From the NCBI GenBank assembly GCA_000002445.1, contig CH464491.1, positions 2,304,001 through 2,368,000 of the forward strand: a stretch of DNA of 64,000 bases. Direction: 5' to 3'. Origin of the DNA: Trypanosoma brucei. Taxonomy: Eukaryota. The number at the start of each line of letters is the position of its first letter. The stretch's first letter is position 1. Under the pieces are notes generated by a model. That model searched no databases, had not been told where the DNA came from, and worked only from the letters and a program-made list of their open reading frames with translations. This document shows positions 18,182 to 40,322 of the stretch, one piece after another. The position numbers and the translations under genes were made by a program.

Positions 18182-18185
18182 TGCC

Positions 18186-18979: not shown

Positions 18980-20704
18980 TTGAGTCTGACTATGTGTGGG
19001 GGAGAAGAGAATGGTGGATTGGATCAGGCACATGTGTCCTACAGTGGCAGTGCGAGTGAGCAAAACATTGCGGAAATGATTGTAGACCCATCAGCTTCCC
19101 GTCAGCCCACAGCATTCCAACTCACACTCGATTGCAATAAGGCAGGAATGGGAAATGTGGATAAGGAGCGTGTCGCTGCAGTGATACATGAGATGTCTGC
19201 GGGATCAGGGTACCTTTGCAATCAGCAGCGTTTATCAAAAAGTCGAGAGAAGCAACTGCAAGAACTCAAGCGGAAATCATCTCTCTTCACTCAGTTGTTG
19301 GGTGGTGAACGAAACGCTGCGCGGCGGACGCAGTGGGAGGTGAAGGTTTCCAAAATAGAACAGGAGCTTGAGGCTACGCGTCGACTGGGAACTTATATCC
19401 ATTTAGACATGGACATGTTTTATGCTGCTGTTGAAATCAAGAAGCATCCGGAGTACGCCAACGTTCCGCTTGCAGTTGGAACTAAAACAATGCTAACAAC
19501 CGCAAATTATGTTGCTAGAGGTTGTGGTGTCCGTCCTGGTATGCCAGGTTATATCGGATTGAAGATTTGCCCGAATTTGCTCATTCTGCCTCCTGATTTC
19601 GATACTTACAATGAGGAATCCAATACTGTGCGCCGTATTGTTGCTGAATACGACCCTAATTACATCAGCTTTGGTTTGGATGAACTGACCCTTGAGGTAA
19701 GTGCCTACATAGAGCGTTTTGAGGGAACCAAAACAGCCGAAGATGTGGCTTCTGAACTGCGTGTGCGTGTATTTGGTGAAACAAAGTTGACAGCAAGTGC
19801 TGGTATTGGACCCACTGCAGCACTTGCCAAGATTGCCAGTAATATTAATAAGCCGAATGGACAACATGATCTTAATCTTCACACCCGAGGGGATGTGATG
19901 ACATACGTCAGGGATTTGGGTCTACGTTCTGTGCCTGGTATTGGGAAGGCTATGGAAGCTCTGTTGAAGGGACTGGGTATCACCACTCTCTCAGATATTT
20001 ACAATAGGCGTGTTGAACTTTGTTATATCTTTACCGAAAAAACATATCGCTTTTTGCTTGGAGCTTCCATTGGCATTATGCAATGGCCCGATGCGTGTAA
20101 TATACCGGGTGGCTCTGTCGATGATGGGACAGGTGTGGGAAGGAAGTCAGTTGGTAGTGAACGTACATTCAAAATATTGCAAAGCAAAGAGGAATTACAG
20201 GAAATTGTTGATTTTATTTTTAATTCTTCGTATGATGAACTAAAGAAACATGAGCTGATGTGTAGACAGGTTTCGTTAAGAATAAGGTGGGCAACCTATC
20301 GATCCCGGCAGTATACTATGAATTTAGCCCAACATTCAGATGACTCTGCAACCCTTCGCCGCGCAGTGGATGGTTTACTGTTACCGCATGCTGCAAAGTA
20401 CTCAGATATGTCGTTACTGGGGATGCGTCTGTTAGACCTTATCTTTGCAAAAGACTTTCATATGAAAAGAAAGGGTGGTAACCAACTGTCTATTTCACAA
20501 TTTATTCGCCCCAAGAAGCCGGGTGAGGTAACAGCAACCACCGGTATAAAAAGGGAGAGGACTACTGAACCGAAACAGGTTGTGGAAATAATAATATCAT
20601 CAGATGACGAGGATGAGAATGATAGTGTTGGCTTGGCATCTAGCTCCACTATACTCGTTTCAACTGGCAAAGGTACTGTTGAGAGGGAAGTTACCATAAT
20701 TTAG
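18980..20704 (+). CDS. DNA polymerase kappa (Y-family), array copy 2
   Basis: 574 aa ORF with DMDMFYAAVE, SAGIGPTAALAKIAS and an HhH motif. It carries variant cassettes 'KTMLTTANYVARGCGVRPGMPGYIGL' and 'IFTEKTYRF...TFKILQSKEELQEI'. Confidence 0.85.
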   Translation: MSLTMCGGEENGGLDQAHVSYSGSASEQNIAEMIVDPSASRQPTAFQLTLDCNKAGMGNVDKERVAAVIHEMSAGSGYLCNQQRLSKSREKQLQELKRKSSLFTQLLGGERNAARRTQWEVKVSKIEQELEATRRLGTYIHLDMDMFYAAVEIKKHPEYANVPLAVGTKTMLTTANYVARGCGVRPGMPGYIGLKICPNLLILPPDFDTYNEESNTVRRIVAEYDPNYISFGLDELTLEVSAYIERFEGTKTAEDVASELRVRVFGETKLTASAGIGPTAALAKIASNINKPNGQHDLNLHTRGDVMTYVRDLGLRSVPGIGKAMEALLKGLGITTLSDIYNRRVELCYIFTEKTYRFLLGASIGIMQWPDACNIPGGSVDDGTGVGRKSVGSERTFKILQSKEELQEIVDFIFNSSYDELKKHELMCRQVSLRIRWATYRSRQYTMNLAQHSDDSATLRRAVDGLLLPHAAKYSDMSLLGMRLLDLIFAKDFHMKRKGGNQLSISQFIRPKKPGEVTATTGIKRERTTEPKQVVEIIISSDDEDENDSVGLASSSTILVSTGKGTVEREVTII

Positions 20705-21497
20705 TGAAGTGAGGACATCAGTCAATGGAAACGCTCACATTGCCCAATGGCATTCATATACAAATCACCTATACACAAGTACCCATAAACAAAACACATT
20801 ATACACATGTATTGTTATACAGCTATCATATGTTTTCATTTTTTGAAGTTATACTTTATATGGTTTATTACTTACATTGTTTTTTTCTTAAGCATGCTTG
20901 TGCTCATGTACAACCAGTGGAGCAACTGGCTAATAACTCCTTCATCTTTGTGCGGACACCTTGGTGTATCCTATACTTTCTTTGAGGCCTTCTAATCCAG
21001 GTACTTTTTACACACTGTGACGCTAATAAGTGTAGTTCTTTCTTTTGATTAATGTCTACTGCGTGCAGTGATGTGAAAAAGTCTGTACTTTATTTGTATG
21101 TTTATCTTCGGGTTTGATTTGTTTGGTTGCTGATGACAGCGGAAGGCCTCTGCAATTATGAAAACTCATAAGGAGGTCCACTATAATTATACTGTTGTTC
21201 CCAGATATACGGGTGTGCGCCTAAAGGGACACGTGACGTTCAAATTGGATATCCCTCCCATTGTTGACCGTATCTCACATTATTGGATATGTTGTAATCA
21301 CTGACGGCTTGCTGTGAACTGCCACAGCTGTACACATGCACACACATGTGATTCGGTTTTTCTTCTCCCAATATCCTTCCTTTCATATAATATAGGCAAC
21401 CACACAATATTGGCACAACACCTGCTATCAAACTACCCTAACCCAAGTGTCTGTTTGTTTCTTTACGTCATTGGGAGGGTTTTAACAAGAACTAACA

Positions 21498-23228
21498 TTG
21501 AGTCTGACTATGTGTGGGGGAGAAGAGAATGGTGGATTGGATCAGGCACATGTGTCCTACAGTGGCAGTGCGAGTGAGCAAAACATTGCGGAAATGATTG
21601 TAGACCCATCAGCTTCCCGTCAGCCCACAGCATTCCAACTCACACTCGATTGCAATAAGGCAGGAATGGGAAATGTGGATAAGGAACGTGTGGAAGCTAT
21701 TATACGTGGTGCCGGGGAAGGCACACCTTTTTTATTAAATGAACAACGTTTGGTTGAGGGTCGAGAGAAGCAACTGCGGGAACTCAAACGGAAATCATCT
21801 CTCTTCACTCGGTTGTTGGGTGGTGAACGAAACGCTGCGCAGCGGACGCAATGGGAGGTGAAGGTTTCCAAAATAGAACAGGAGCTTGAGGCTACGCGTC
21901 GACTGGGAACTTATATCCATTTAGACATGGACATGTTTTATGCTGCTGTTGAAATCAAGAAGCATCCGGAGTACGCCACCATTCCGCTTGCCATAGGCAC
22001 CATGACGAGGCTACAAACAGCAAATTACATTGCGCGTGGACGTGGTATTCGTCAAGGTATGCCAGGTTTCCTTGCTCTAAAAATCTGCCCGAATTTGCTC
22101 ATTCTGCCTCCTGATGATGATTCTTACAATGAGGAATCCAATACTGTGCGCCGTATTGTTGCTGAATACGACCCTAATTACATAGTTGTTGGTTTGGATG
22201 AACTAGCCCTTGAGGTAAGTGCCTACATAGAGCGTTTTGAGGGAACCAAAACAGCCGAAGATGTGGCTTCTGAACTGCGTGTGCGTGTATTTGGTGAAAC
22301 AAAGTTGACAGCAAGTGCTGGTATTGGACCCACTGCAGCACTTGCCAAGATTGCCAGTAATATTAATAAGCCGAATGGACAACATGATCTTAATCTTCAT
22401 ACCCGAGAGGATGTGATGACATACGTCAGGGATTTGGGTCTACGTTCTGTGCCTGGTGTTGGGAAGGTTACGGAAGCTCTGTTGAAGGGACTGGGTATCA
22501 CCACTCTCTCAGATATTTACAATAGGCGTGTTGAACTTTGTTACATTTTGCACAATAATTTATTTCGCTTTTTGCTTGGAGCTTCCATTGGCATTATGCA
22601 ATGGCCCGATGCAGCAACGGCAGCCAATACCGAGAATTGTGAGGGGGCTACTGGAGAGCAACGGAAGGCAATCAGTAGCGAGCGATCCATCACTACTCCA
22701 CGAACCAAAGAAGGTATGCAGGAAATGGTTGATACCGTATTCAATGGTGCCTATGAAGAAATGCGGAAGAGTGAGATAATGTGTAGACGGATATCCCTCA
22801 CAATTAGATGGGCGTCTTATCGTTATCAACAATACACAAAAAGTTTGATACAACATTCAGATGACTCTGCAACCCTTCGCCGCGCAGTAGACGAGCTCAT
22901 GTTACCGCACGCTGCAAAGTATTCAGAGATGTGTTTGTTGGGGGTACGTCTCTCGGACCTTATCTCTGCAAAAGACTTTCATATGAAAAGAAAGGGTGGT
23001 AACCAACTGTCTATTTCACAATTTATTCGCCCCAAGAAGCCGGGTGAGGTAACAGCAACCACCGGTATAAAAAGGGAGAGGACTACTGAACCGAAACAGG
23101 TTGTGGAAATAATAATATCATCAGATGACGAGGATGAGAATGATAGTGTTGGCTTGGCATCTAGCTCCACTATACTCGTTTCAACTGACAAAGGTACTGT
23201 TGAGAGGGAAGTTACCATAATTGAGTGA
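21498..23228 (+). CDS. DNA polymerase kappa (Y-family), array copy 3
   Basis: 576 aa ORF with the same catalytic motifs. Its cassettes are 'TMTRLQTANYIARGRGIRQ' plus 'PPDDDSYNEE' plus 'ILHNNLFRF...SITTPRTKEGMQEM'. Confidence 0.85.
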   Translation: MSLTMCGGEENGGLDQAHVSYSGSASEQNIAEMIVDPSASRQPTAFQLTLDCNKAGMGNVDKERVEAIIRGAGEGTPFLLNEQRLVEGREKQLRELKRKSSLFTRLLGGERNAAQRTQWEVKVSKIEQELEATRRLGTYIHLDMDMFYAAVEIKKHPEYATIPLAIGTMTRLQTANYIARGRGIRQGMPGFLALKICPNLLILPPDDDSYNEESNTVRRIVAEYDPNYIVVGLDELALEVSAYIERFEGTKTAEDVASELRVRVFGETKLTASAGIGPTAALAKIASNINKPNGQHDLNLHTREDVMTYVRDLGLRSVPGVGKVTEALLKGLGITTLSDIYNRRVELCYILHNNLFRFLLGASIGIMQWPDAATAANTENCEGATGEQRKAISSERSITTPRTKEGMQEMVDTVFNGAYEEMRKSEIMCRRISLTIRWASYRYQQYTKSLIQHSDDSATLRRAVDELMLPHAAKYSEMCLLGVRLSDLISAKDFHMKRKGGNQLSISQFIRPKKPGEVTATTGIKRERTTEPKQVVEIIISSDDEDENDSVGLASSSTILVSTDKGTVEREVTIIE

Positions 23229-24018: not shown

Positions 24019-25746
24019 TTGAGTCTGACTATGTGTGGGGGAGAAGAGAATGGTGGATTGGATCAGGCACATGTGTCCTACAGTGGCAGTGCGAGTGAGC
24101 AAAACATTGCGGAAATGATTGTAGACCCATCAGGTTCCCGTCAGCCCACAGCATTCCAACTCACACTCGATTGCAATAAGGCAGGAATGGGAAATGTGGA
24201 TAAGGAACGTGTGGAAGCTATTATACGTAATGTATCTGAGGGTTCTTCCTTTTTGATGAATGAGCAGCGGAAGGCTGAGGGTCGAGAGAAGCAACTGCAA
24301 GAGCTCAAGCGGAAATCATCTCTCTTCACTCAGTTGTTGGGTGGTGAACGAAACGCTGCGCGGCGGAAACAGTGGGAGCTGAAGGTTTCCAAAATAGAAC
24401 AGGAGCTTGAGGCTACGCGTCGACTGGGAACTTATATCCATTTAGACATGGACATGTTTTATGCTGCTGTTGAAATCAAGAAGCATCCGGAGTACGCCAA
24501 CGTTCCGCTTGCAGTTGGGAGTGTGTCAATGTTGTCTACCGCAAATTATGTTGCACGTGAATGTGGTATTCGCTCCGGTATGCCAGGTTATATCGGATTG
24601 AAGGTCTGCCCGAATTTGCTCATTCTGCCTCCTGATTTCGATGCTTACAATGAAGAATCCAATACTGTGCGCCGTATTGTTGATGAATACGACCCTAATT
24701 TTACCTCTCTCGGTTTGGATGACTTGACCCTCGAGGTAAGTGCCTACATAGAGCGTTTTGAGGGAACCAAAACAGCCGAAGATGTGGCTTCTGAACTGCG
24801 TGTGCGTGTATTTGGTGAAACAAAGTTGACAGCAAGTGCTGGTATTGGACCCACTGCAGCACTTGCCAAGATTGCCAGTAATATTAATAAGCCGAATGGA
24901 CAACATGATCTTAATCTTCATACCCGAGGGGATGTGATGACATACGTCAGGGATTTGGGTCTACGTTCTGTGCCTGGTGTTGGGAAGGTTACGGAAGCTC
25001 TGTTGAAGGGACTGGGTATCACCACTCTCTCAGATATTTACAATAGGCGTGTTGAACTTTGTTACATTTTGCACAATAATTTATTTCGCTTTTTGCTTGG
25101 AGCTTCCATTGGCATTATGCAATGGCCCGATGCAGCAACGGCAGCCAATACCGAGAATTGTGAGGGGGCTACTGGAGGGCAACGGAAGGCAATCAGTAGC
25201 GAGCGATCTTTTTATGTGTTACATAGCAAAGAGCAGTTGCATGAAATGATTTACAGTATTTTTGAAGAGGCCTATGAAGAAATGCGACAGAATGAGATGT
25301 TGTGTCGTCAGATCTCCTTGCTTGTGCGTTGGTCGTCTTATCGTTATCAACAATACACAAAAAGTTTGATACAATATTCAGATGACTCTGCAACCCTTCG
25401 CCGCGCAGTGGATGGTTTACTGTTACCGCACGCTGCAAAGTATTCAGAGATGTGTTTGTTGGGGGTACGTTTTCTTGACCTTATCTCTGCAAAAGACTTT
25501 CATATGAAAAGAAAGGGTGGTAACCAACTGTCTATTTCACAATTTATTCGCCCCAAGAAGCCGGGTGAGGTAACAGCAACCACCGGTATAAAAAGGGAGA
25601 GGACTACTGAACCGAAACAGGTTGTGGAAATAATAATATCATCAGACGACGAGGATGAGAATGATAGTGTTGGCTTGGCATCTAGCTCCACTATACTCGT
25701 TTCAACTGACAAAGGTACTGTTGAGAGGGAAGTTACCATAATTTAG
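24019..25746 (+). CDS. DNA polymerase kappa (Y-family), array copy 4
   Basis: 575 aa ORF. Its cassettes are 'GSVSMLSTANYVARECGIRSGMPGYIGLKVCP' and 'SFYVLHSKEQLHEMIYSIFEEAYEEMRQNEMLCRQISLLVRW'. Confidence 0.85.
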   Translation: MSLTMCGGEENGGLDQAHVSYSGSASEQNIAEMIVDPSGSRQPTAFQLTLDCNKAGMGNVDKERVEAIIRNVSEGSSFLMNEQRKAEGREKQLQELKRKSSLFTQLLGGERNAARRKQWELKVSKIEQELEATRRLGTYIHLDMDMFYAAVEIKKHPEYANVPLAVGSVSMLSTANYVARECGIRSGMPGYIGLKVCPNLLILPPDFDAYNEESNTVRRIVDEYDPNFTSLGLDDLTLEVSAYIERFEGTKTAEDVASELRVRVFGETKLTASAGIGPTAALAKIASNINKPNGQHDLNLHTRGDVMTYVRDLGLRSVPGVGKVTEALLKGLGITTLSDIYNRRVELCYILHNNLFRFLLGASIGIMQWPDAATAANTENCEGATGGQRKAISSERSFYVLHSKEQLHEMIYSIFEEAYEEMRQNEMLCRQISLLVRWSSYRYQQYTKSLIQYSDDSATLRRAVDGLLLPHAAKYSEMCLLGVRFLDLISAKDFHMKRKGGNQLSISQFIRPKKPGEVTATTGIKRERTTEPKQVVEIIISSDDEDENDSVGLASSSTILVSTDKGTVEREVTII

Positions 25747-26539: not shown

Positions 26540-28267
26540 TTGAGTCTGACTATGTGTGGGGGAGAAGAGAATGGTGGATTGGATCAGGCACATGTGTCCT
26601 ACAGTGGCAGTGCGAGTGAGCAAAACATTGCGGAAATGATTGTAGGCCCATCAGGTTCCCGTCAGCCCACAGCATTCCAACTCACACTCGATTGCAATAA
26701 GGCAGGAATGGGAAATGTGGATAAGGAACGTGTGGAAGCTATTATACGTAATGTATCTGAGGGTTCTTCCTTTTTGATGAATGAGCAGCGGAAGGCTGAG
26801 GGTCGAGAGAAGCAACTGCAAGAACTCAAGCGGAAATCATCTCTCTTCACTCAGTTGTTGGGTGGTGAACGAAACGCTGCGCAGCGGAAACAGTGGGAGC
26901 TGAAGGTTTCCAAAATAGAACAGGAGCTTGAGGCTACGCGTCGACTGGGAACTTATATCCATTTAGACATGGACATGTTTTATGCTGCTGTTGAAATCAA
27001 GAAGCATCCGGAGTACGCCGCCATTCCACTTGCAGTTGGGAGTGTGTCAATGTTGTCTACCGCAAATTATGTTGCACGTGAATGTGGTATTCGCTCCGGT
27101 ATGCCAGGTTATATCGGATTGAAGGTCTGCCCGAATTTGCTCATTCTGCCTCCTGATTTCGATGCTTACAATGAGGAATCCAATACTGTGCGCCGTATTG
27201 TTGCTGAATACGACCCTAATTTTACCTCTCTCGGTTTGGATGAACTGACCCTTGAGGTAAGTGCCTACATAGAGCGCTTTGAGGGAACCAAAACAGCCGA
27301 AGATGTGGCTTCTGAACTGCGTGTGCGTGTATTTGGTGAAACAAAGTTGACAGCAAGTGCTGGTATTGGACCCACTGCAGCACTTGCCAAGATTGCCAGT
27401 AATATTAATAAGCCGAATGGACAACATGATCTTAATCTTCATACCCGAGAGGATGTGATGACATACGTCAGGGATTTGGGTCTACGTTCTGTGCCTGGTA
27501 TTGGGAAGGTTACGGAAGCTCTGTTGAAGGGACTGGGTATCACCACTCTCTCAGATATTTACAATAGGCGTGTTGAACTTTGTTATATTTTTACCGAAAA
27601 AACATATTGTTTTTTGCTTGGAGCTTCCATTGGCATTATGCAATGGCCCGATATGTGCAGCATACTTGGTGCCTCCATCGATGATGGGACAGGTGTGGGA
27701 AGGAAGTCAGTTGGGTGTGAACGTACATTCAAAACATTTCAAAACAAAGAAGAATTGCAGGAAATGGTTGATTTCTTAGTCGACTACTCATATGATGAAC
27801 TAAAGAAACATGAGCTGATGTGTAGACAGGTTTCGTTAAAAATTCGATGGAATTCCTACCGTCATCAACAATACACAAAGAATTTGACTCAATATTCAGA
27901 TGACTCTGCAACCCTTCGCCGCGCAGTAGACGAGCTCATGTTACCGCACGCTGCAAAGTATTCAGAGATGCGGCTGCTGGGGGTACGTTTTCTTGACCTT
28001 ATCTTTGCAAAAGACTTTCATATGAAAAAAAAGGGTGGTAACCAACTGTCTATTTCACAATTTATTCGCCCCAAGAAGCCGGGTGAGGTAACAGCAACCA
28101 CCGGTATAAAAAGGGAGAGGACTACTGAACCGAAACAGGTTGTGGAAATAATAATATCATCAGATGACGAGGATGAGAATGATAGTGTTGGCTTGGCATC
28201 TAGCTCCACTGTACTCGTTTCAACTGACAAAGGTACTGTTGAGAGGGAAGTTACCATAATTGAGTGA
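26540..28267 (+). CDS. DNA polymerase kappa (Y-family), array copy 5
   Basis: 575 aa ORF with a unique middle cassette 'PDMCSILGASIDDG...TFKTFQNKEELQEMVDFLVDYSYDELKKHE'. The intergenic region that follows is 103 bp shorter than in other units and has about 90 bp of substituted sequence. Confidence 0.85.
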   Translation: MSLTMCGGEENGGLDQAHVSYSGSASEQNIAEMIVGPSGSRQPTAFQLTLDCNKAGMGNVDKERVEAIIRNVSEGSSFLMNEQRKAEGREKQLQELKRKSSLFTQLLGGERNAAQRKQWELKVSKIEQELEATRRLGTYIHLDMDMFYAAVEIKKHPEYAAIPLAVGSVSMLSTANYVARECGIRSGMPGYIGLKVCPNLLILPPDFDAYNEESNTVRRIVAEYDPNFTSLGLDELTLEVSAYIERFEGTKTAEDVASELRVRVFGETKLTASAGIGPTAALAKIASNINKPNGQHDLNLHTREDVMTYVRDLGLRSVPGIGKVTEALLKGLGITTLSDIYNRRVELCYIFTEKTYCFLLGASIGIMQWPDMCSILGASIDDGTGVGRKSVGCERTFKTFQNKEELQEMVDFLVDYSYDELKKHELMCRQVSLKIRWNSYRHQQYTKNLTQYSDDSATLRRAVDELMLPHAAKYSEMRLLGVRFLDLIFAKDFHMKKKGGNQLSISQFIRPKKPGEVTATTGIKRERTTEPKQVVEIIISSDDEDENDSVGLASSSTVLVSTDKGTVEREVTIIE

Positions 28268-31478: not shown

Positions 31479-32762
31479 TTGAGTCTGACTATGTGTGGGG
31501 GAGAAGAGAATGGTGGATTGGATCAGGCACATGTGTCCTACAGTGGCAGTGCGAGTGAGCAAAACATTGCGGAAATGATTGTAGACCCATCAGCTTCCCG
31601 TCAGCCCACAGCATTCCAACTCACACTCGATTGCAATAAGGCAGGAATGGGAAATGTGGATAAGGAACGTGTGGAAGCTATTATACGTAATGTATCTGAG
31701 GGTTCTTCCTTTTTGATGAATGAGCAGCGGAAAGCTGAGGGTCGAGAGAAGCAACTGCAAGAGCTGAAGCGGAAATCATCTCTCTTCACTCAGTTGTTGG
31801 ATGGTGAACGAAACGCTGCGCAGCGGAAACAGTGGGAGCTGAAGGTTTCCAAAATAGAACAGGAGCTTGAGGCTACGCGTCGACTGNGAACTTATATCCA
31901 TTTAGACATGGACATGTTTTATGCTGCTGTTGANATCAAGAAGCATCCGGAGTACGCCGCCATTCCGCTTGCCATAGNNNNNNNNNNNNNNNNNNNNNNN
32001 NNNNNNNNNNNNNNNNNNNNNNNNNNNNNNNNNNNNNNNNNNNNNNNNNNNNNNNNNNNNNNNNNNNNNNNNNNNNNCGAACTTTGTTATATCTTTACCG
32101 AAAAAACATATCGCTTTTTGCTTGGAGCTTCCATTGGCATTATGCAATGGCCCGATGCGTGTAATATACCGGGTGGCTCTGTCGATGATGGGACAGGTGT
32201 GGGAAGGAAGTCAGTTGGTAGTGAACGTACATTCAAAATATTGCAAAGCAAAGAGGAATTACAGGAAATTGTTGATTTTATTTTTAATTCTTCGTATGAT
32301 GAACTAAAGAAACATGAGCTGATGTGTAGACAGGTTTCGTTAAGAATAAGGTGGGCAACCTATCGATCCCGGCAGTATACTATGAATTTAGCCCAACATT
32401 CAGATGACTCTGCAACCCTTCGCCGCGCAGTGGATGGTTTACTGTTACCGCATGCTGCAAAGTACTCAGATATGTCGTTACTGGGGATGCGTCTGTTAGA
32501 CCTTATCTTTGCAAAAGACTTTCATATGAAAAAAAAGGGTGGTAACCAACTGTCTATTTCACAATTTATTCGCCCCAAGAAGCCGGGTGAGGTAACAGCA
32601 ACCACCGGTATAAAAAGGGAGAGGACTACTGAACCGAAACAGGTTGTGGAAATAATAATATCATCAGATGACGAGGATGAGAATGATAGTGTTGGCTTGG
32701 CATCTAGCTCCACTATACTCGTTTCAACTGGCAAAGGTACTGTGAGAGGGAAGTTACCATAA
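31479..32762 (+). CDS. DNA polymerase kappa (Y-family), array copy 7. Incomplete, interrupted by a 100-N gap and ambiguous bases, with a 1-nt deletion near the 3' end.
   Basis: The ORF is read through the N run at 31978-32077 (translated as X). About 420 bp of coding sequence is missing. The C-terminus reads 'GKGTVRGKLP*' instead of 'GKGTVEREVTII*' because of a missing t near 32742. Confidence 0.5.
   Translation: MSLTMCGGEENGGLDQAHVSYSGSASEQNIAEMIVDPSASRQPTAFQLTLDCNKAGMGNVDKERVEAIIRNVSEGSSFLMNEQRKAEGREKQLQELKRKSSLFTQLLDGERNAAQRKQWELKVSKIEQELEATRRLXTYIHLDMDMFYAAVXIKKHPEYAAIPLAIXXXXXXXXXXXXXXXXXXXXXXXXXXXXXXXXXXELCYIFTEKTYRFLLGASIGIMQWPDACNIPGGSVDDGTGVGRKSVGSERTFKILQSKEELQEIVDFIFNSSYDELKKHELMCRQVSLRIRWATYRSRQYTMNLAQHSDDSATLRRAVDGLLLPHAAKYSDMSLLGMRLLDLIFAKDFHMKKKGGNQLSISQFIRPKKPGEVTATTGIKRERTTEPKQVVEIIISSDDEDENDSVGLASSSTILVSTGKGTVRGKLP
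31978..32077. other. assembly gap (100 N) inside pol kappa copy 7. Single ambiguous bases also occur at 31887 and 31934.
   Basis: N run. Confidence 0.95.
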
Positions 32763-33555: not shown

Positions 33556-35280
33556 TTGAGTCTGACCATGTGTGGGGGAGAAGAGAATGGTGGATTGGAT
33601 CAGGCACATGTGTCCTACAGTGGCAGTGCGAGTGAGCAAAACATTGCGGAAATGATTGTAGGCCCATCAGCTTCCATCACCATGGGTTTTCCGTTTTCCA
33701 TCGATTGCAATAAGGCAGGAATGGGAAATGTGGATAAGGAACGTGTGGAAGCTATTATACGTGATGCCAGGGAAGGATCCCCCTTTCTATTGAATGAACA
33801 ACGTTTGGCTGAGGGTCGAGAGAAGCAACTGCAAGAGCTCAAACGGAAATCATCTCTCTTCACTCAGTTGTTGGGTGGTGAACGAAACGCTGCGCAGCGG
33901 AAACAGTGGGAGCTGAAGGTTTCCAAAATGGAGCAGGAGCTTGAGGCTACGCGTCGACTGGGAACTTATATCCATTTAGACATGGACATGTTTTATGCTG
34001 CTGTTGAAATCAAGAAGCATCCGGAGTACGCCACCATTCCGCTTGCCATAGGCACCATGACGAGGCTACAAACAGCAAATTACATTGCGCGTGGACGTGG
34101 TGTCCGTCCCGGTATGCCAGGTTTCCTTGCTCTAAAAATCTGCCCAAATCTACTATTACTCCCTCCCGATGATGATTCTTACTATTTGGAATCCAATATC
34201 GTACGTCGTATTGTTGCTGAATACGACCCTAATTACATAGTTGTTGGTTTGGATGACTTTACTCTCGAAGTAAGTGCCTACATAGAGCGTTTTGAGGGAA
34301 CCAAAACAGCCGAAGATGTGGCTTCTGAACTGCGTGTGCGTGTATTTGGTGAAACAAAGTTGACAGCAAGTGCTGGTATTGGACCCACTGCAGCACTTGC
34401 CAAGATTGCCAGTAATATTAATAAGCCGAATGGACAACATGATCTTAATCTTCACACCCGAGGGGATGTGATGACATACGTCAGGGATTTGGGTCTACGT
34501 TCTGTGCCTGGTGTTGGGAAGGTTACGGAAGCTCTGTTGAAGGGACTGGGTATCACCACTCTCGGCGACATTCACGATAGGCGTGTTGAACTTTGTTACA
34601 TTTTGCACAATAATTTATTTCGCTTTTTGCTTGGAGCTTCCATTGGCATTATGCAATGGCCCGATGCAGCAACGGCAGCCAATACCGAGAATTGTGAGGG
34701 GGCTACTGGAGGGCAACGGAAGGCAATCAGTAGCGAGCGATCTTTTTATGTGTTACATAGCAAAGAGCAGTTGCATGAAATGATTTACAGTATTTTTGAA
34801 GAGGCCTATGAAGAAATGCGACAGAATGAGATGTTGTGTCGTCAGATCTCCTTGCTTGTGCGTTGGTCGTCTTATCGTTATCAACAATACACAAAAAGTT
34901 TGATACAATATTCAGATGACTCTGCAACCCTTCGCCGCGCAGTGGATGGTTTACTGTTACCGCACGCTGCAAAGTATTCAGAGATGTGTTTGTTGGGGGT
35001 ACGTTTTCTTGACCTTATCTCTGCAAAAGACTTTCATATGAAAAGAAAGGGTGGTAACCAACTGTCTATTTCACAATTTATTCGCCCCAAGAAGCCGGGT
35101 GAGGTAACAGCAACCACCGGTATAAAAAGGGAGAGGACTACTGAACCGAAACAGGTTGTGGAAATAATAATATCATCAGACGACGAGGATGAGAATGATA
35201 GTGTTGGCTTGGCATCTAGCTCCACTATACTCGTTTCAACTGACAAAGGTACTGTTGAGAGGGAAGTTACCATAATTTAG
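33556..35280 (+). CDS. DNA polymerase kappa (Y-family), array copy 8
   Basis: 574 aa ORF. It has a unique N-terminal patch 'GPSASITMGFPFSID' (a 27-nt block replacing the usual 30 nt) and the cassette 'LLLLPPDDDSYYLESNIVRR'. Confidence 0.85.
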   Translation: MSLTMCGGEENGGLDQAHVSYSGSASEQNIAEMIVGPSASITMGFPFSIDCNKAGMGNVDKERVEAIIRDAREGSPFLLNEQRLAEGREKQLQELKRKSSLFTQLLGGERNAAQRKQWELKVSKMEQELEATRRLGTYIHLDMDMFYAAVEIKKHPEYATIPLAIGTMTRLQTANYIARGRGVRPGMPGFLALKICPNLLLLPPDDDSYYLESNIVRRIVAEYDPNYIVVGLDDFTLEVSAYIERFEGTKTAEDVASELRVRVFGETKLTASAGIGPTAALAKIASNINKPNGQHDLNLHTRGDVMTYVRDLGLRSVPGVGKVTEALLKGLGITTLGDIHDRRVELCYILHNNLFRFLLGASIGIMQWPDAATAANTENCEGATGGQRKAISSERSFYVLHSKEQLHEMIYSIFEEAYEEMRQNEMLCRQISLLVRWSSYRYQQYTKSLIQYSDDSATLRRAVDGLLLPHAAKYSEMCLLGVRFLDLISAKDFHMKRKGGNQLSISQFIRPKKPGEVTATTGIKRERTTEPKQVVEIIISSDDEDENDSVGLASSSTILVSTDKGTVEREVTII

Positions 35281-36073: not shown

Positions 36074-37801
36074 TTGAGTCTGACTATGTGTGGGGGAGAA
36101 GAGAATGGTGGATTGGATCAGGCACATGTGTCCTACAGTGGCAGTGCGAGTGAGCAAAACATTGCGGAAATGATTGTAGACCCATCAGGTTCCCGTCAGC
36201 CCACAGCATTCCAACTCACACTCGATTGCAATAAGGCAGGAATGGGAAATGTGGATAAGGAACGTGTGGAAGCTATTATACGTGATGCCAGGGAAGGCAC
36301 ACCTTTTTTATTAAATGAACAACGTTTGGCTGAGGGTCGAGAGAAGCAACTGCAAGAGCTGAAGCGGAAATCATCTCTCTTCACTCGGTTGTTGGGTGGT
36401 GAACGAAACGCTGCGCAGCGGAAACAGTGGGAGCTGAAGGTTTCCAAAATAGAACAGGAGCTTGAGGCTACGCGTCGACTGGGAACTTATATCCATTTAG
36501 ACATGGACATGTTTTATGCTGCTGTTGAAATCAAGAAGCATCCGGAGTACGCCACCATTCCGCTTGCCATAGGCACCATGACTATGATAATAACAACAAA
36601 TTATGTTGCGCGTGGACGTGGTATTCGTCAAGGTATGCCAGGTTTCCTTGCTCTAAAAATCTGCCCAAATCTACTATTACTCCCTCCCGATGATGATTCC
36701 TACTATTTGGAATCCAATATCGTACGTCGTATTGTTGCTGAATACGACCCTAATTATATAGTTGTTGGTTTGGATGACTTTACTCTCGAAGTAAGTGCCT
36801 ACATAGAGCGTTTTGAGGGAACCAAAACAGCCGAAGATGTGGCTTCTGAACTGCGTGTGCGTGTATTTGGTGAAACAAAGTTGACAGCAAGTGCTGGTAT
36901 TGGACCCACTGCAGCACTTGCCAAGATTGCCAGTAATATTAATAAGCCGAATGGACAACATGATCTTAATCTTCACACGCGAGGGGATGTGATGACATAC
37001 GTCAGGGATTTGGGTCTACGTTCTGTGCCTGGTGTTGGGAAGGTTACGGAAGCTCTGTTGAAGGGACTGGGTATCACCACTCTCTCAGATATTTACAATA
37101 GGCGTGTTGAACTTTGTTACATTTTGCACAATAATTTATTTCGCTTTTTGCTTGGAGCTTCCATTGGCATTATGCAATGGCCCGATGCAGCAACGGCAGC
37201 CAATACCGAGAATTGTGAGGGGGCTACTGGAGAGCAACGGAAGGCAATCAGTAGCGAGCGATCCATCACTACTCCACGAACCAAAGAAGGTATGCAGGAA
37301 ATGGTTGATACCGTATTCAATGGTGCCTATGAAGAAATGCGGAAGAGTGAGATAATGTGTAGACGGATATCCCTCACAATTAGATGGGCCTCTTATCGTT
37401 ATCAACAATACACAAAAAGTTTGATACAATATTCAGATGACTCTGCAACCCTTCGCCGCGCAGTAGACGAGCTCATGTTACCGCACGCTGCAAAGTATTC
37501 AGAGATGTGTTTGTTGGGGGTACGTCTCTCGGACCTTATCTCTGCAAAAGACTTTCATATGAAAAGAAAGGGTGGTAACCAACTGTCTATTTCACAATTT
37601 ATTCGCCCCAAGAAGCCGGGTGAGGTAACAGCAACCACCGGTATAAAAAGGGAGAGGACTACTGAACCGAAACAGGTTGTGGAAATAATAATATCATCAG
37701 ATGACGAGGATGAGAATGATAGTGTTGGCTTGGCATCTAGCTCCACTATACTCGTTTCAACTGGCAAAGGTACTGTTGAGAGGGAAGTTACCATAATTTA
37801 G
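36074..37801 (+). CDS. DNA polymerase kappa (Y-family), array copy 9
   Basis: 575 aa ORF with cassette 'TMTMIITTNYVARGRGIRQ' plus 'LLLLPPDDDSYYLESNIVRR'. Confidence 0.85.
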   Translation: MSLTMCGGEENGGLDQAHVSYSGSASEQNIAEMIVDPSGSRQPTAFQLTLDCNKAGMGNVDKERVEAIIRDAREGTPFLLNEQRLAEGREKQLQELKRKSSLFTRLLGGERNAAQRKQWELKVSKIEQELEATRRLGTYIHLDMDMFYAAVEIKKHPEYATIPLAIGTMTMIITTNYVARGRGIRQGMPGFLALKICPNLLLLPPDDDSYYLESNIVRRIVAEYDPNYIVVGLDDFTLEVSAYIERFEGTKTAEDVASELRVRVFGETKLTASAGIGPTAALAKIASNINKPNGQHDLNLHTRGDVMTYVRDLGLRSVPGVGKVTEALLKGLGITTLSDIYNRRVELCYILHNNLFRFLLGASIGIMQWPDAATAANTENCEGATGEQRKAISSERSITTPRTKEGMQEMVDTVFNGAYEEMRKSEIMCRRISLTIRWASYRYQQYTKSLIQYSDDSATLRRAVDELMLPHAAKYSEMCLLGVRLSDLISAKDFHMKRKGGNQLSISQFIRPKKPGEVTATTGIKRERTTEPKQVVEIIISSDDEDENDSVGLASSSTILVSTGKGTVEREVTII

Positions 37802-38594
37802 TGAAATGAGGACATCAGTCAATAGAAATTCCCACATTGCCCAATGGCATTCATATACAAATCACCTATACACAAGTACCCATAAACAAAACACATTATA
37901 CACATGTATTGTTATACACCTATCATATGTTTTCATTTTTTGAAGTTATACTTTATATGGTTTATTACTTACATTGTTTTTTTCTTAAGCATGCTTGTGC
38001 TCATGTACAACCAGTGGAGCAACTGGCTAATAACTCCTTCATCTTTGTGCGGACACCTTGGTGTATCCTATACTTTCTTTGAGGCCTTCTAATCCAGGTA
38101 CTTTTTACACACTGTGACGCTAATAAGTGTAGTTCTTTCTTTTGATTAATGTCTACTGCGTGCAGTGATGCGAAAAAGTCTGTACTTTATTTGTATGTTT
38201 ATCTTCGGGTTTGATTTGTTTGGTTGCTGATGACAGTGGAAGGTCTCTGCAATTATGAAAACTCATAAGGAGGTCCACTATAATTATACTGTTGTTCCCA
38301 GATATACGGGTGTGCGCCTAAAGGGACACGTGACGTTCAAATTGGATATCCCTCCCATTGTTGACCGTATCTCACATTATTGGATATGTTGTAATCACTG
38401 ACGGCTTGCTGTGAACTGCCACAGCTGTACACATGCACACACATGTGATTCGGTTTTTCTTCTCCCAATATCCTTCCTTTCATATAATATAGGCAACCAC
38501 ACAATATTGGCACAACACCTGCTATCAAACTACCCTAACCCAAGTGTCTGTTTGTTTCTTTACGTCACTGGGAGGGTTTTAACAAGAACTAACA

Positions 38595-40322
38595 TTGAGT
38601 CTGACTATGTGTGGGGGAGAAGAGAATGGTGGATTGGATCAGGCACATGTGTCCTACAGTGGCAGTGCGAGTGAGCAAAACATTGCGGAAATGATTGTAG
38701 ACCCATCAGGTTCCCGTCAGCCCACAGCATTCCAACTCACACTCGATTGCAATAAGGCAGGAATGGGAAATGTGGATAAGGAACGTGTGGAAGCTATTAT
38801 ACGTAATGTATCTGAGGGTTCTTCCTTTTTGATGAATGAACAACGTTTGGCTGAGGGTCGAGAGAAGCAACTGCAAGAGCTCAAACGGAAATCATCTCTC
38901 TTCACTCAGTTGTTGGGTGGTGAACGAAACGCTGCGCAGCGGAAACAGTGGGAGCTGAAGGTTTCCAAAATAGAACAGGAGCTTGAGGCTACGCGTCGAC
39001 TGGGAACTTATATCCATTTAGACATGGACATGTTTTATGCTGCTGTTGAAATCAAGAAGCATCCGGAGTACGCCGCCATTCCGCTTGCCATAGGCACCAT
39101 GACGAGGCTACAAACAGCAAATTACATTGCGCGTGGACGTGGTGTTCGATGTAGCATGCCAGGTTTCCTTGCTCTAAAAATCTGCCCGAATTTGCTCATT
39201 CTGCCTCCTGATTTCGATGCTTACAACGAGGAATCCAATACTGTGCGCCGTATTGTTGCTGAATACGACCCTAATTATATCAGCTTTGGTTTGGATGAAC
39301 TGACCCTTGAGGTAAGTGCCTACATAGAGCGTTTTGAGGGAACCAAAACAGCCGAAGATGTGGCTTCTGAACTGCGTGTGCGTGTATTTGGTGATACAAA
39401 GTTGACAGCAAGTGCTGGTATTGGACCCACTGCAGCACTTGCCAAGATTGCCAGTAATATTAATAAGCCGAATGGACAACATGATCTTAATCTTCATACC
39501 CGAGAGGATGTGATGACATACGTCAGGGATTTGGGTCTACGTTCTGTGCCTGGTGTTGGGAAGGTTACGGAAGCTCTGTTGAAGGGACTGGGTATCACCA
39601 CTCTCTCAGATATTTACAATAGGCGTGTTGAACTTTGTTACATTTTGCACAATAATTTATTTCGCTTTTTGCTTGGAGCTTCCATTGGCATTGTGCAATG
39701 GCCCGATGCAGCAACGGCAGCCAATACCGAGAATTGTGAGGGGGCTACTGGAGGGCAACGGAAGGCAATCAGTAGCGAGCGATCCATCACTACTCCACGA
39801 ACCAAAGAAGGTATGCAGGAAATGGTTGATACCGTATTCAATGGTGCCTATGAAGAAATGCGGAAGAGTGAGCTGATGTGTAGACGCATTTCGTTAAGAA
39901 TAAGGTGGGCCTCCTATCGTTATCAACAATACACAAAAAGTTTGATACAATATTCAGATGACTCTGCAACCCTTCGCCGCGCAGTGGATGGTTTACTGTT
40001 ACCGCATGCTGCAAAGTATTCAGAGATTTCACTGTTGGGGGTACGTTTTCTTGACCTTATCTTTGCAAAAGACTTTCATATGAAAAGAAAGGGTGGTAAC
40101 CAACTGTCTATTTCACAATTTATTCGCCCCAAGAAGCCGGGTGAGGTAACAGCAACCACCGGTATAAAAAGGGAGAGGACTACTGAACCGAAACAGGTTG
40201 TGGAAATAATAATATCATCAGACGACGAGGATGAGAATGATAGTGTTGGCTTGGCATCTAGCTCCACTATACTCGTTTCAACTGACAAAGGTACTGTTGA
40301 GAGGGAAGTTACCATAATTTAG
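38595..40322 (+). CDS. DNA polymerase kappa (Y-family), array copy 10 (terminal)
   Basis: 575 aa ORF. It has 'RGVRCSMPGF' and, like copy 1, 'YSEISLLGVRFLDL'. The intergenic region after it has a 30-bp deletion relative to other units. Confidence 0.85.
   Translation: MSLTMCGGEENGGLDQAHVSYSGSASEQNIAEMIVDPSGSRQPTAFQLTLDCNKAGMGNVDKERVEAIIRNVSEGSSFLMNEQRLAEGREKQLQELKRKSSLFTQLLGGERNAAQRKQWELKVSKIEQELEATRRLGTYIHLDMDMFYAAVEIKKHPEYAAIPLAIGTMTRLQTANYIARGRGVRCSMPGFLALKICPNLLILPPDFDAYNEESNTVRRIVAEYDPNYISFGLDELTLEVSAYIERFEGTKTAEDVASELRVRVFGDTKLTASAGIGPTAALAKIASNINKPNGQHDLNLHTREDVMTYVRDLGLRSVPGVGKVTEALLKGLGITTLSDIYNRRVELCYILHNNLFRFLLGASIGIVQWPDAATAANTENCEGATGGQRKAISSERSITTPRTKEGMQEMVDTVFNGAYEEMRKSELMCRRISLRIRWASYRYQQYTKSLIQYSDDSATLRRAVDGLLLPHAAKYSEISLLGVRFLDLIFAKDFHMKRKGGNQLSISQFIRPKKPGEVTATTGIKRERTTEPKQVVEIIISSDDEDENDSVGLASSSTILVSTDKGTVEREVTII

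What the first reader, a model, noticed from the sequence alone, without database searches (positions are those of the whole stretch)
18980..40322. Copies are a mosaic of discrete variable cassettes on an otherwise near-identical backbone (gene-conversion patchwork)
Variation is confined to a few blocks. They are aa 37-45, aa 60-80 (for example NVSEGSSFLMNEQRKAEG, GAGEGTPFLLNEQRLVEG, DAREGSPFLLNEQRLAEG) and aa 150-235, just after the catalytic DMD motif, with at least 5 types such as TITRLITTNYVARGRGIRQ, KTMLTTANYVARGCGVRPG and GSVSMLSTANYVARECGIRSG. They also include PPDFDAYNEE vs PPDDDSYYLESNIVRR, and aa 335-425 with 3 types (SITTPRTKEGMQEM..., TFKILQSKEELQEI... and SFYVLHSKEQLHEMIYSIFEEAYEEMRQNEMLCRQISLLVRW). 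The same cassette recurs in non-adjacent copies in different combinations, and flanking sequence is identical at the nucleotide level. In Y-family polymerases the fingers and the thumb/little-finger (PAD) determine lesion specificity, which is where the variable blocks fall. This suggests a combinatorially diversified set of translesion polymerases rather than simple dosage amplification.
Basis: partly seen in the sequence, partly recalled or inferred. Interest (0 to 1): 0.75.

Follow-up and report, generated by a model that had tools for sequence, protein, structure and literature searches.

The report
Mosaic pol kappa gene array
This is the known tandem array of about ten DNA polymerase kappa genes on chromosome 11 of Trypanosoma brucei TREU927, whose copies are patchworks of a few old, divergent segments on a backbone kept identical by gene conversion; the pattern is real but already published, and only the idea that the patches change what the enzymes can copy is still untested.

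Summary
The window is T. b. brucei TREU927 chromosome 11, by exact protein matches. It holds ten head-to-tail POLK copies with a period of about 2521 bp.

- **Clustered variation:** many 30-nt windows have zero diversity. Four blocks reach pi 0.15-0.35.
- **Recombination:** PHI z = -29, Rmin = 41, and long shared runs are significant in nearly all pairs.
- **Not an artefact:** the same cassettes occur in the T. b. gambiense and T. b. equiperdum assemblies in partly different combinations, so they are not assembly chimeras.
- **Age and selection:** within blocks dS is 0.45-0.93 and dN/dS is 0.25-0.42. The backbone has dS 0-0.06. The blocks are therefore old divergence islands in a homogenised backbone, not hypermutation.
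- **Domain mapping:** on human Pol kappa the PAD (little finger) is strongly enriched (p = 5e-10). The fingers lid loop, an N-clasp helix and the palm strand with the catalytic Glu also vary. The palm core and C-tail are constant.
- **Conserved residues replaced:** derived cassettes replace M135 with R and catalytic E199 with D. All four combinations of these occur.

The mosaic and its recombination were already published for this array (Jackson 2007, 2010), and positive selection was claimed by Poveda 2020. Functional diversification remains plausible but untested.

The parts
15152..16881 (+). Copy c0, the tenth POLK copy, outside the finding's range. ATG at 15164. A frameshift after about codon 76 means the annotated protein EAN79810 starts at 15388. 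It is a hybrid of first-copy-like 5' sequence and last-copy-like 3' sequence.
16958..18186 (+). 3' flank of c0 plus a 5' fragment of the divergent Y-family paralog. It is 99.2% identical to 40373-41600 and is probably a mis-join or a fragment of the other haplotype.
18187..18286 (.). 100-N assembly gap between c0 with its paralog fragment and c1.
18992..20704 (+). Copy c1 (EAN79812), the most ancestral-like cassette set (M135, E199 and F422 kept). It has a unique N-clasp cassette.
21510..23228 (+). Copy c2 (EAN79813). R at the M135 position, E199 kept.
24031..25746 (+). Copy c3 (EAN79814). M135 kept, D at the E199 position. Carries the PAD cassette 'SFYVLHSKEQ'.
26552..28267 (+). Copy c4 (EAN79815). 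Ancestral-like at M135, E199, F422 and R507. It has its own PAD type and a unique 3'UTR replacement.
28970..30685 (+). Copy c5 (EAN79816), used as the reference for numbering and for the AlphaFold2 model. R at M135 (codon at 29468-29470, AGG) and D at E199 (codon at 29660-29662, GAC).
31491..32762 (+). Copy c6, interrupted by a 100-N gap at 31978-32077 and two single N. A 1-nt deletion near the 3' end shifts the frame. Its 3' half is identical in type to c1.
33568..35280 (+). Copy c7 (EAN79819). R at M135 and D at E199. It has a unique V1 cassette (SIT-MGFPFSI).
36086..37801 (+). Copy c8 (EAN79820). M135 kept, D at E199.
38607..40322 (+). Copy c9 (EAN79821), the last copy, contiguous with the full divergent paralog. 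R at M135, E199 kept.
29060..29107 (+). Variable block V1 in c5 (codons 31-46). It lies just N-terminal of the N-clasp in a region of low model confidence.
29150..29221 (+). Variable block V2 in c5 (codons 61-84, about human 29-52), the N-clasp helix. dS 0.93, dN/dS 0.27.
29429..29677 (+). Variable block V3 in c5 (codons 154-236, human 122-204). It covers the fingers lid loop, the rest of the fingers and the palm up to the strand carrying D198/E199. dS 0.57, dN/dS 0.25.
30005..30427 (+). Variable block V4 in c5 (codons 346-486). It covers the last thumb helix, the disordered thumb-PAD linker and the PAD from strand 1 to strand 4. dS 0.45, dN/dS 0.42.
40972..42636 (+). Divergent Y-family paralog (554 aa) that closes the array. 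It is 25% identical to c1 over the palm, thumb and PAD only, and Pfam IMS matches only its C-terminal half.

Best explanation
The region is the DNA polymerase kappa (POLK) tandem array of T. b. brucei TREU927 chromosome 11.

**Mechanism (shown).**
- The copies evolve in concert. Unequal crossing-over and short-tract gene conversion between neighbouring repeats have erased almost all differences in the backbone: the first 30 codons, the palm core, most of the thumb, the C-terminal tail, the UTRs and the intergenic DNA.
- Four old, strongly diverged segments survive as discrete haplotype blocks.
- Conversion tracts that start and end in the identical backbone move these blocks as units, so copies carry different combinations.

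**Function (inferred).**
- The blocks code for an N-clasp helix, the fingers lid over the template base together with the palm strand carrying the third catalytic carboxylate, the last thumb helix and linker, and most of the PAD.
- All cassette types remain under purifying selection and have intact reading frames.
- All copies share the same flanks inside one polycistron, so the cell presumably makes a standing panel of at least 8 Pol kappa isoforms.
- These isoforms probably differ in template or lesion handling, because some carry M135R, E199D, F422I or R507S/C at positions that are otherwise invariant in the family.
For: **Identity.** There are exact protein matches to TREU927 EAN79810-21. 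Pfam finds IMS, IMS_HHH and IMS_C. The best solved-structure matches are human Pol kappa. An AlphaFold2 model with pLDDT 81 matches human Pol kappa with TM 0.84.

**Mosaic and recombination.**

**Old islands in a homogenised backbone.**
- Block dS is 0.45-0.93 against backbone dS of 0-0.06, and dN/dS is 0.25-0.42.
- pN/pS is below 1 everywhere except codons 346-375.
- Poorly conserved and disordered regions are nevertheless invariant among copies (C tail 2 of 65 positions). Inside the blocks, 36% of family-conserved positions vary. Block position, not constraint, therefore decides what varies.

**Cassettes predate the subspecies split and are reshuffled.**
- 315 polymorphic sites are shared by the TREU927 and DAL972 arrays, with only 1 fixed difference (P511L in every copy of one lineage).
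- Some whole copies are conserved: c1-g2 98.8%, c2-g6 99.1%, c7-g3 98.8%. Others are new combinations.

**Domain mapping.**

**Conserved residues replaced.**
- M135 is M in 60 of 60 other homologues, and E199 is E in 61 of 61.
- All four M/R x E/D combinations occur among the copies.

**Literature.**
- Jackson 2007 (PMC1855330): Ds 0.21, Dn 0.09, T. brucei copies monophyletic, the 'orthologous' topology rejected at p = 0.0001.
- Jackson 2010 (PMC2854126): PHI p<0.001, at least 9-10 breakpoints.
- Stortz 2017 (PMC5542689): POLK RNAi sensitises cells to MMS, and the cause of the expansion is stated to be unknown.
Against: - The functional half is inference only. No isoform has been assayed.
- M135R, E199D and F422I could equally mark relaxed constraint or partial loss of activity in redundant copies.
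- Diverged islands can persist without selection, because sequence divergence itself suppresses conversion.
- The fingers and the N-clasp as whole domains are not significantly enriched for variation.
- The TREU927 assembly has two gaps here and a probable mis-join at c0, so the exact copy number and order in this strain are uncertain.
- Some 'copies' could be alleles of the two haplotypes.
- Expression of every copy was not tested.
Confidence: 0.75

Rival explanations
1. Neutral patchwork with dosage as the only function. The array was amplified for gene dosage in a genome without individual promoters. The variable blocks are leftovers of old paralogues that gene conversion can no longer homogenise, because mismatch-dependent heteroduplex rejection stops tracts at diverged DNA. 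The isoforms are functionally equivalent, or some are partly degraded.
For: - dN/dS is below 1 with high dS in the blocks, so there is no general sign of diversifying selection.
- The most variable stretch includes a disordered linker (pLDDT < 50).
- Substitutions at invariant family positions (M135R, E199D, F422I, R507S/C) fit relaxed constraint.
- Jackson 2007 describes the same kind of mosaics in 21 of 47 T. brucei arrays of unrelated function, so the pattern needs no polymerase-specific reason.
Against: - All complete copies keep open frames, and block dN/dS is 0.25-0.42, so each cassette type is still constrained.
- Catalytic D107 and D198, the steric gate Y112, and the dNTP-binding Y141, R144, R149 and K328 are invariant in every copy.
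- Cassette types are retained in three subspecies.
- Under frequent conversion, theory (my own knowledge: Innan; Teshima and Innan) expects divergence to be lost unless selection opposes it.
Confidence: 0.35
2. Ongoing positive (diversifying) selection or targeted mutagenesis creates the variable blocks, as in antigen or receptor families.
For: - Poveda 2020 (PMC7576959) reports codeml M2 over M1 at p = 0.001 and at least 5 FEL sites at p<0.1 in the seven DAL972 copies.
- pN/pS is 2.4 at codons 346-360 and about 1.0 at codons 361-375.
Against: - Synonymous divergence in the blocks is as high as or higher than non-synonymous divergence (dS 0.45-0.93).
- 315 of the variable sites already existed before the brucei/gambiense split, so the variation is old and standing, not newly generated.
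- The published codeml test, as described in the text and supplement read here, mentions no correction for recombination. By my own knowledge (Anisimova et al. 2003), recombination inflates false positives in such tests.
- The one window with pN/pS above 1 involves only two haplotypes.
Confidence: 0.1
3. The mosaics are assembly chimeras or a collapse of the two haplotypes of a repetitive region.
For: - There are two 100-N gaps and two single N inside the array.
- c0 is a first-copy/last-copy hybrid followed by a duplicated paralog fragment, a structure absent from the DAL972 and equiperdum arrays.
- c0 and c6 carry single frameshifts.
Against: - The same cassettes, and several identical whole-copy combinations, are found in independent assemblies: DAL972 without gaps, and T. 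b. equiperdum without gaps.
- 315 polymorphic sites are shared across assemblies.
- Copy 2 is c1-like in all three strains.
Confidence: 0.03

Closest known systems
T. brucei variable tandem gene arrays with sequence mosaics (Jackson 2007, BMC Evol Biol 7:54; Jackson et al. 2010, PLoS NTD 4:e658). Array 112, 'DNA polymerase kappa', sample gene Tb11.01.0080.
   Same: This is the same locus in the same strain. The papers report 10 copies in T. b. brucei and 7 in T. b. gambiense, PHI p<0.001, at least 9-10 GARD breakpoints, monophyly of the T. brucei copies (concerted evolution), and Ds 0.21 against Dn 0.09.
   Different: The text of those surveys that I read does not discuss where the blocks fall in the protein, the per-block dS contrast, or the substitutions at invariant residues. 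Their supplementary gene-conversion tables were not read.
Poveda et al. 2020 (Front Cell Infect Microbiol 10:570493): POLK expansion in trypanosomatids and positive selection in the seven DAL972 copies.
   Same: It covers the same gene family and array and raises the same question of whether the expansion is adaptive.
   Different: They describe the copies as 'highly conserved among them' and ran site models on a single tree, with no recombination correction mentioned. Here the per-block analysis shows old divergence with dN/dS below 1.
Duplicated genes whose functional segments resist homogenisation by gene conversion, such as primate red/green opsins, RHD/RHCE and MHC genes (my own knowledge).
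   Same: These show a near-identical backbone, including non-coding DNA, with islands of divergence at functionally important codons, and patchwork alleles produced by partial conversion.
   Different: In those cases selection on the islands has been demonstrated. Here it is only inferred. This array is also much larger (about 10 copies) and sits in a polycistron.
Engineered Y-family domain-swap chimeras (Dpo4/Dbh little-finger swaps; Boudsocq et al. 2004, cited in PMC6695781; PDB 4F4W and 4F4Y appear).
   Same: Exchanging the little finger/PAD between otherwise similar Y-family polymerases changes lesion bypass and fidelity. The natural cassettes here swap the same domain.
   Different: Those chimeras are laboratory constructs between archaeal enzymes. 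No activity data exist for the trypanosome isoforms.
T. cruzi Pol kappa (Rajao et al. 2009, Mol Microbiol 71:185; cited).
   Same: It is the orthologous family in a related trypanosome (47% identity). It bypasses 8-oxoG and extends D-loops.
   Different: T. cruzi has only two copies, and one is mitochondrial. No mosaic array is reported.

Membership tests
Y-family DNA polymerase, DinB/Pol kappa subfamily | Domain architecture of IMS catalytic core, helix-hairpin-helix thumb motif and IMS_C (little finger/PAD). | tested here: met
   PF00817 E = 4e-41, PF11798 E = 5e-7, PF11799 E = 5e-10, all above the curated cut-offs.
Y-family DNA polymerase, DinB/Pol kappa subfamily | Closest sequence and fold relatives are Pol kappa rather than eta, iota or Rev1, including the Pol kappa-specific N-clasp. 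| tested here: met
   human Pol kappa E = 1e-69, with the alignment starting at human residue 17. K25 is conserved; the AlphaFold2 model's best PDB hits are all human Pol kappa (6cst_A, E = 4e-40, TM 0.84).
Y-family DNA polymerase, DinB/Pol kappa subfamily | Catalytic carboxylate triad (human D107, D198, E199). | tested here: inconclusive
   D107 and D198 are invariant. E199 is kept in c1, c2, c4 and c9 but is Asp (GAC) in c0, c3, c5, c7 and c8, whereas 61 of 61 other homologues have Glu. The residue is still acidic, and the effect on catalysis is unknown.
Y-family DNA polymerase, DinB/Pol kappa subfamily | Steric gate and dNTP-binding residues (human Y112, T138, Y141, R144, R149, K328). | tested here: met
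   all are invariant in the 8 complete copies.
Y-family DNA polymerase, DinB/Pol kappa subfamily | Template-dependent DNA synthesis and lesion bypass activity. | not testable with these tools
   No biochemical data exist for any T. brucei isoform. The 2025 review lists it as 'homology' only. Indirect support: POLK RNAi sensitises cells to MMS.
Tandem multigene family under concerted evolution with gene-conversion mosaics | Head-to-tail repeats with near-identical coding backbone and intergenic DNA. | tested here: met
   period about 2521 bp, and pi is about 0 over most of the unit.
Tandem multigene family under concerted evolution with gene-conversion mosaics | Statistically significant recombination between copies. 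| tested here: met
   PHI z = -29 and Rmin = 41; shared-run tests. This agrees with PMC2854126 Table 2.
Tandem multigene family under concerted evolution with gene-conversion mosaics | Lineage-specific homogenisation, meaning that all copies in one lineage share a change. | tested here: met
   P511 is present in all typed TREU927 copies and L511 in all DAL972 and equiperdum copies. This is the single fixed difference. The SH test in PMC1855330 favours monophyly of the T. brucei copies.
Programmed diversification system (silent donor cassettes feeding one expressed gene, as in VSG mosaic formation or immunoglobulin gene conversion; or targeted mutagenesis) | An archive of silent or partial donors plus a distinct expressed acceptor. 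| tested here: not met
   all complete copies are full-length ORFs with the same flanks in the same orientation. No distinct acceptor or pseudogene archive is present.
Programmed diversification system (silent donor cassettes feeding one expressed gene, as in VSG mosaic formation or immunoglobulin gene conversion; or targeted mutagenesis) | Excess of non-synonymous over synonymous change in the variable regions, or newly generated variation. | tested here: not met
   dN/dS is 0.25-0.42; 315 variable sites predate the subspecies split.

The most novel reading that the evidence does not exclude
The cassettes are functionally distinct modules that selection keeps apart: lid loop M135 or R, catalytic E199 or D, N-clasp variants and four PAD types. 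Conversion in the identical backbone reassorts them. T. brucei would then carry a natural, co-expressed domain-swap library of Pol kappa isoforms with different template or lesion ranges, for example alkylation damage, oxidised bases, recombination intermediates, or nuclear versus kinetoplast DNA. That would answer the open question of why POLK expanded in this parasite.
Probability: 0.25. Interest if true: 0.65.

Novelty: already known. Interest (0 to 1): 0.35.

Why it matters
If the cassettes really alter substrate handling, the array would be a rare natural case of combinatorial domain shuffling inside a DNA repair enzyme. It would also explain an expansion that the trypanosome DNA-repair field calls unexplained (PMC5542689). 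As it stands, the pattern is a well-documented example of concerted evolution with retained divergence islands.

- The islands are old and under purifying selection.
- They hit the PAD, the template-base lid and the third catalytic carboxylate.
- Five copies carry E199D and five carry M135R, in all four combinations. This gives a ready-made set of variants for biochemical testing.
- The published positive-selection claim is weak because it did not account for recombination.
- The TREU927 assembly is probably mis-joined at the left end of the array.

Tried and rejected
1. **Assembly-chimera explanation for the mosaics.** Rejected, because the cassettes and several whole copies recur in the DAL972 and equiperdum assemblies. 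It does seem to apply to c0 and the paralog fragment only.
2. **Hypermutation or diversifying selection in the blocks.** Rejected as the general explanation, because dS is as elevated as dN.
3. **Variable blocks are simply the unconstrained parts of the protein.** Rejected. The disordered, poorly conserved N-terminus and C-tail are invariant among copies, while conserved positions inside the blocks do vary.
4. **The divergent downstream paralog as donor of the cassettes.** Rejected. It is only 25% identical at the protein level and lacks an alignable fingers region.
5. **Searching the PAD and tail of c1 alone against solved structures.** This found nothing. Human numbering for the PAD was instead obtained from a multiple alignment. 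That alignment used a human sequence written from memory and checked against 26 residue identities taken from the papers.
6. **Sites reported as selected by Poveda 2020.** I looked for them in the supplement. Only the methods are held, not the site list.
7. **Not attempted.** GARD/RDP proper, codeml, and a search for T. congolense or T. vivax array DNA. Cassette age relative to the T. congolense split therefore rests on protein distances only.

Full report
**What the region is**

ORF listing and BLAST of one repeat unit against the window show ten head-to-tail copies of a 1.7-kb gene with a period of about 2521 bp.
- c0 lies at 15152-16881, outside the finding's range.
- c1 to c9 lie at 18980-40322.
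- The real start is the ATG 12 nt after the TTG listed by the ORF tool.
- Eight copies are complete. c0 has a frameshift near codon 76. c6 is broken by a 100-N gap and has a 1-nt deletion near its 3' end.

The proteins carry Pfam IMS, IMS_HHH and IMS_C. Their best matches among solved structures are human DNA polymerase kappa (E = 1e-69). An AlphaFold2 model of c5 (mean pLDDT 81) has human Pol kappa complexes as its best PDB matches (6cst_A, E = 4e-40, TM 0.84).

Exact-sequence look-up identifies the copies as EAN79810 and EAN79812-79821 of Trypanosoma brucei brucei TREU927, on a 5.26-Mb contig. The neighbours fit a trypanosome chromosome: a HAD hydrolase, a divergent Y-family paralog and a GP63/leishmanolysin gene.

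**Check of the observation**

A MAFFT alignment of the ten units shows many 30-nt bins with zero diversity. Pi reaches 0.15-0.35 in blocks at CDS nt 120-150, 210-300, 480-720, 1050-1080 and 1110-1470. The intergenic DNA is almost identical. The matrix of 375 variable columns shows sharply bounded runs of variants shared by different subsets of copies in different blocks.

The clustering is far beyond chance:
- The variance/mean ratio of segregating sites per window is 7.25, against at most 1.54 in 5000 permutations.
- Fifteen windows are empty, against at most 2.

Recombination tests I wrote myself on the eight complete copies are unambiguous:
- PHI 0.2035 against a permuted mean of 0.433 (z = -29, 0 of 2000).
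- Rmin = 41.
- Sawyer-type longest shared runs are significant in 27 of 28 pairs at p <= 0.003.

Four corrections apply:
- There are four major PAD types rather than three.
- There is a tenth copy.
- One copy is gapped.

**Not an assembly artefact, with one exception**

The same cassettes occur in the seven copies of T. b. gambiense DAL972 and in T. b. equiperdum, in partly different combinations.

At the DNA level the TREU927 and DAL972 arrays share 315 polymorphic sites. Only 42 and 22 sites are private to each array, and there is one fixed difference.

Three TREU927 copies have near-identical partners in DAL972: c1-g2 98.8%, c2-g6 99.1%, c7-g3/g5 98.8%. The others are new combinations.

The fixed difference is Pro511 in every TREU927 copy against Leu in every DAL972 and equiperdum copy. 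It shows that a change can sweep through the whole array.

The exception is c0.
- Its V3 block is like the first copy of DAL972, but its PAD end, tail and 3' flank are like the last copy.
- It is followed by a 5' fragment of the divergent paralog that is 99.2% identical to 40373-41600, and then by the 100-N gap.
- In the gapless DAL972 and equiperdum loci, copy 1 is followed directly by a c1-like copy 2 with no paralog fragment.
- This part of the TREU927 scaffold is therefore probably a mis-join, or an allele in which the array collapsed by first/last-copy crossover.

**What the blocks are**

Nei-Gojobori estimates by block:

| Region (codons) | Mean dS | dN/dS |
|---|---|---|
| V2 (61-84) | 0.93 | 0.27 |
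| V3 (154-236) | 0.57 | 0.25 |
| V4 (346-486) | 0.45 | 0.42 |
| Backbone | 0-0.06 | not informative (few differences) |

In 15-codon windows pN/pS stays at 0.13-0.59 across nearly all of the gene. It reaches 0.75 at codons 31-45. The exceptions above 1 are codons 346-360 (2.4, two haplotypes only) and the disordered linker at 361-375 (1.0). Two backbone windows have undefined ratios because pS is zero.

The blocks are therefore old paralogous divergence under purifying selection, sitting in a backbone recently homogenised by conversion. They are not products of hypermutation or pervasive diversifying selection.

Constraint does not explain the layout:
- The disordered, poorly conserved N-terminus and C-tail are invariant among copies (2 of 65 positions in the tail).
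- Inside the blocks, 36% of positions that are at least 80% conserved across 61 other Pol kappa homologues vary.

In the first half of the PAD the cassette types differ at 43-59% of residues. That is as much as any of them differs from T. congolense (43-61%), and c1 is closer to T. congolense than to the other T. brucei types. So the PAD cassettes may be about as old as that species split, or the derived types evolved fast.

**Where the blocks fall in the enzyme**

I used the domain limits and contact residues of human Pol kappa from Vasquez-Del Carpio et al. 2009 (PMC2686167) and the review PMC6695781. The alignment's human numbering passed 26 residue checkpoints.

Variable positions by domain:

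| Domain | Variable / total | Note |
|---|---|---|
| PAD | 58 / 114 | OR 4.0, p = 5e-10 |
| Palm | 14 / 102 | depleted, p = 8e-4 |
| C-tail | 3 / 78 | depleted |
| Fingers | 21 / 61 | not significant |
| N-clasp | 17 / 50 | not significant |

By secondary-structure element:
- The fingers lid loop (human 132-135) varies at 4 of 4 positions, and the next strand at 3 of 4.
- PAD strand 1 varies at 5 of 7 positions, the following loop at 6 of 6, and helix A at 16 of 21.
- The palm core from codon 236 to 298 is almost invariant.

The lid loop belongs to the 'active site loop 127-141'. The review describes this loop as tolerant to change and as a determinant of lesion selectivity; for example, V130I relaxes discrimination against a major-groove adduct. 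The same V/I alternation occurs here.

**Substitutions at invariant residues**

Residues needed for chemistry and dNTP binding are invariant in all eight complete copies: D107, D198, Y112, T138, Y141, R144, R149, K328 and K25.

Several positions conserved throughout the family are replaced in the derived cassettes:
- **M135**, which stacks on the template base, is M in 60 of 60 other homologues. It is Arg (AGG) in c0, c2, c5, c7 and c9.
- **E199**, the third catalytic carboxylate, is E in 61 of 61. It is Asp (GAC) in c0, c3, c5, c7 and c8.
- **F422** is Ile in c0, c2, c5, c8 and c9.
- **R507** is Arg only in c4.

The outgroups T. congolense, T. cruzi and T. vivax have M and E at the first two positions, so c1 and c4 are the ancestral-like copies.

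All four M/R x E/D combinations exist among the copies, although the two codons are only 192 nt apart. This is a compact illustration of the reassortment. I found no mention of these substitutions in the papers I could read.

**Mechanism**

Shown:
- A tandem array with significant recombination.
- A homogenised backbone with old islands of divergence.
- Cassettes that predate the subspecies split.
- Lineage-wide fixation of at least one change.
- Reshuffled interior copies between subspecies.

Inferred:
- Unequal crossing-over and short-tract conversion initiate and resolve in the identical backbone. They carry diverged blocks along as units, while divergence inside a block hinders tracts from ending there.
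- All copies have the same flanks in one polycistronic unit, so they are presumably co-expressed.
- The result would be a standing panel of isoforms, not a switching system.

Whether selection keeps the blocks apart (functional partitioning) or they persist passively cannot be decided from sequence.

**Comparison with what is known**

This exact array is 'array 112, DNA polymerase kappa' in two surveys.
- Jackson 2007 (PMC1855330): Ds 0.21, Dn 0.09, monophyly of the T. brucei copies, and the orthologous topology rejected at p = 0.0001.
- Jackson et al. 2010 (PMC2854126, Table 2): sample gene Tb11.01.0080, 10 copies in T. b. brucei and 7 in T. b. gambiense, 4 shared isoforms, PHI p<0.001, and at least 9-10 GARD breakpoints.

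Poveda et al. 2020 (PMC7576959) reported codeml M2 over M1 (p = 0.001) and at least 5 FEL sites for the DAL972 copies. The methods text I read mentions no correction for recombination, and my per-block estimates do not support pervasive positive selection.

Stortz et al. 2017 found that POLK RNAi sensitises T. brucei to MMS. They state that the selection pressure behind the expansion is unknown. A 2025 review still lists T. brucei POLK as 'homology' only.

**Verdict**

The gene-conversion reading is correct.

The structural reading is partly correct:
- Yes for the PAD and the lid loop.
- No for most of the thumb.
- The N-clasp and a catalytic palm strand are also involved.

The functional conclusion, a combinatorially diversified set of translesion polymerases, is a reasonable hypothesis that the sequence neither proves nor excludes.

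The points added here are the age and selective regime of the blocks, the replaced invariant residues and their free reassortment, the weakness of the published positive-selection claim, and the probable mis-join at the left end of the TREU927 array.

Noticed in passing
window 14821-18286: Copy c0 is a hybrid. Its V3 block resembles the first copy of other strains, while its PAD end, 'VVGVNLSS' tail and 3' flank resemble the last copy. It is followed by a 5' fragment of the divergent paralog (99.2% identical to 40373-41600) and a 100-N gap. The gapless DAL972 and equiperdum arrays have no such fragment after copy 1. This is probably a scaffold mis-join, or a collapsed one-copy allele of the other haplotype.
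   Followed up: partly
window 29468-29470 and 29660-29662 (c5), and the equivalent codons in the other copies: Family-invariant residues are replaced in some copies. The template-base lid Met (human M135) becomes Arg in 5 copies. The third catalytic carboxylate Glu (human E199) becomes Asp in 5 copies. All four combinations occur. F422 becomes Ile, and R507 becomes Ser or Cys, in some copies.
   Followed up: partly
window 40972-42636: The divergent Y-family paralog that closes the array is 25% identical to c1 over the palm, thumb and PAD only. Its N-terminal half does not align to the DMD motif or fingers region, and the 'NKPNG' segment containing the K328 equivalent is not conserved. It may be a non-catalytic polymerase-like protein.
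   Followed up: partly
window 28268-28957 (3' of c4): Copy c4 has a unique replacement of about 190 nt in its 3'UTR, and its unit is about 103 nt shorter than the others (2418 against 2521 bp). All other copies share one 3'UTR type.
   Followed up: no
window 32700-32762 (c6) and about 15390 (c0): Single-base frameshifts occur in c6 (a 1-nt deletion gives the tail ...GTVRGKLP) and in c0 (a stop after about codon 76). These are either sequencing errors in the 2005 assembly or real pseudogenes.
   Followed up: no
codons 346-360 of each copy (for example window 30005-30049 in c5): This is the only stretch with pN/pS clearly above 1 (2.4). The last thumb helix reads 'LHNNLF' in most copies and 'FTEKTY' in c1, c4 and c6. 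The outgroups have the TEK form.
   Followed up: partly
nt 1532 of the CDS alignment (codon 511; for example about window 30500-30502 in c5): This is the single fixed difference between the arrays. It is Pro in every TREU927 copy and Leu in every DAL972 and equiperdum copy, a sign of array-wide homogenisation since the lineages split.
   Followed up: yes
window about 42000 onward: G+C content rises from about 0.42-0.45 in the array to 0.48-0.58 downstream. A GP63/leishmanolysin gene lies at 44622-46496 (Pfam Peptidase_M8, E = 6e-138).
   Followed up: no
window 19493-19882, 24526-24921, 27047-27442, 29537-29860 and 39174-39497 (minus strand): Antisense ORFs of 107-131 aa recur inside the POLK copies. 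They repeat only because the underlying DNA repeats, and there is no evidence that they are genes.
   Followed up: no
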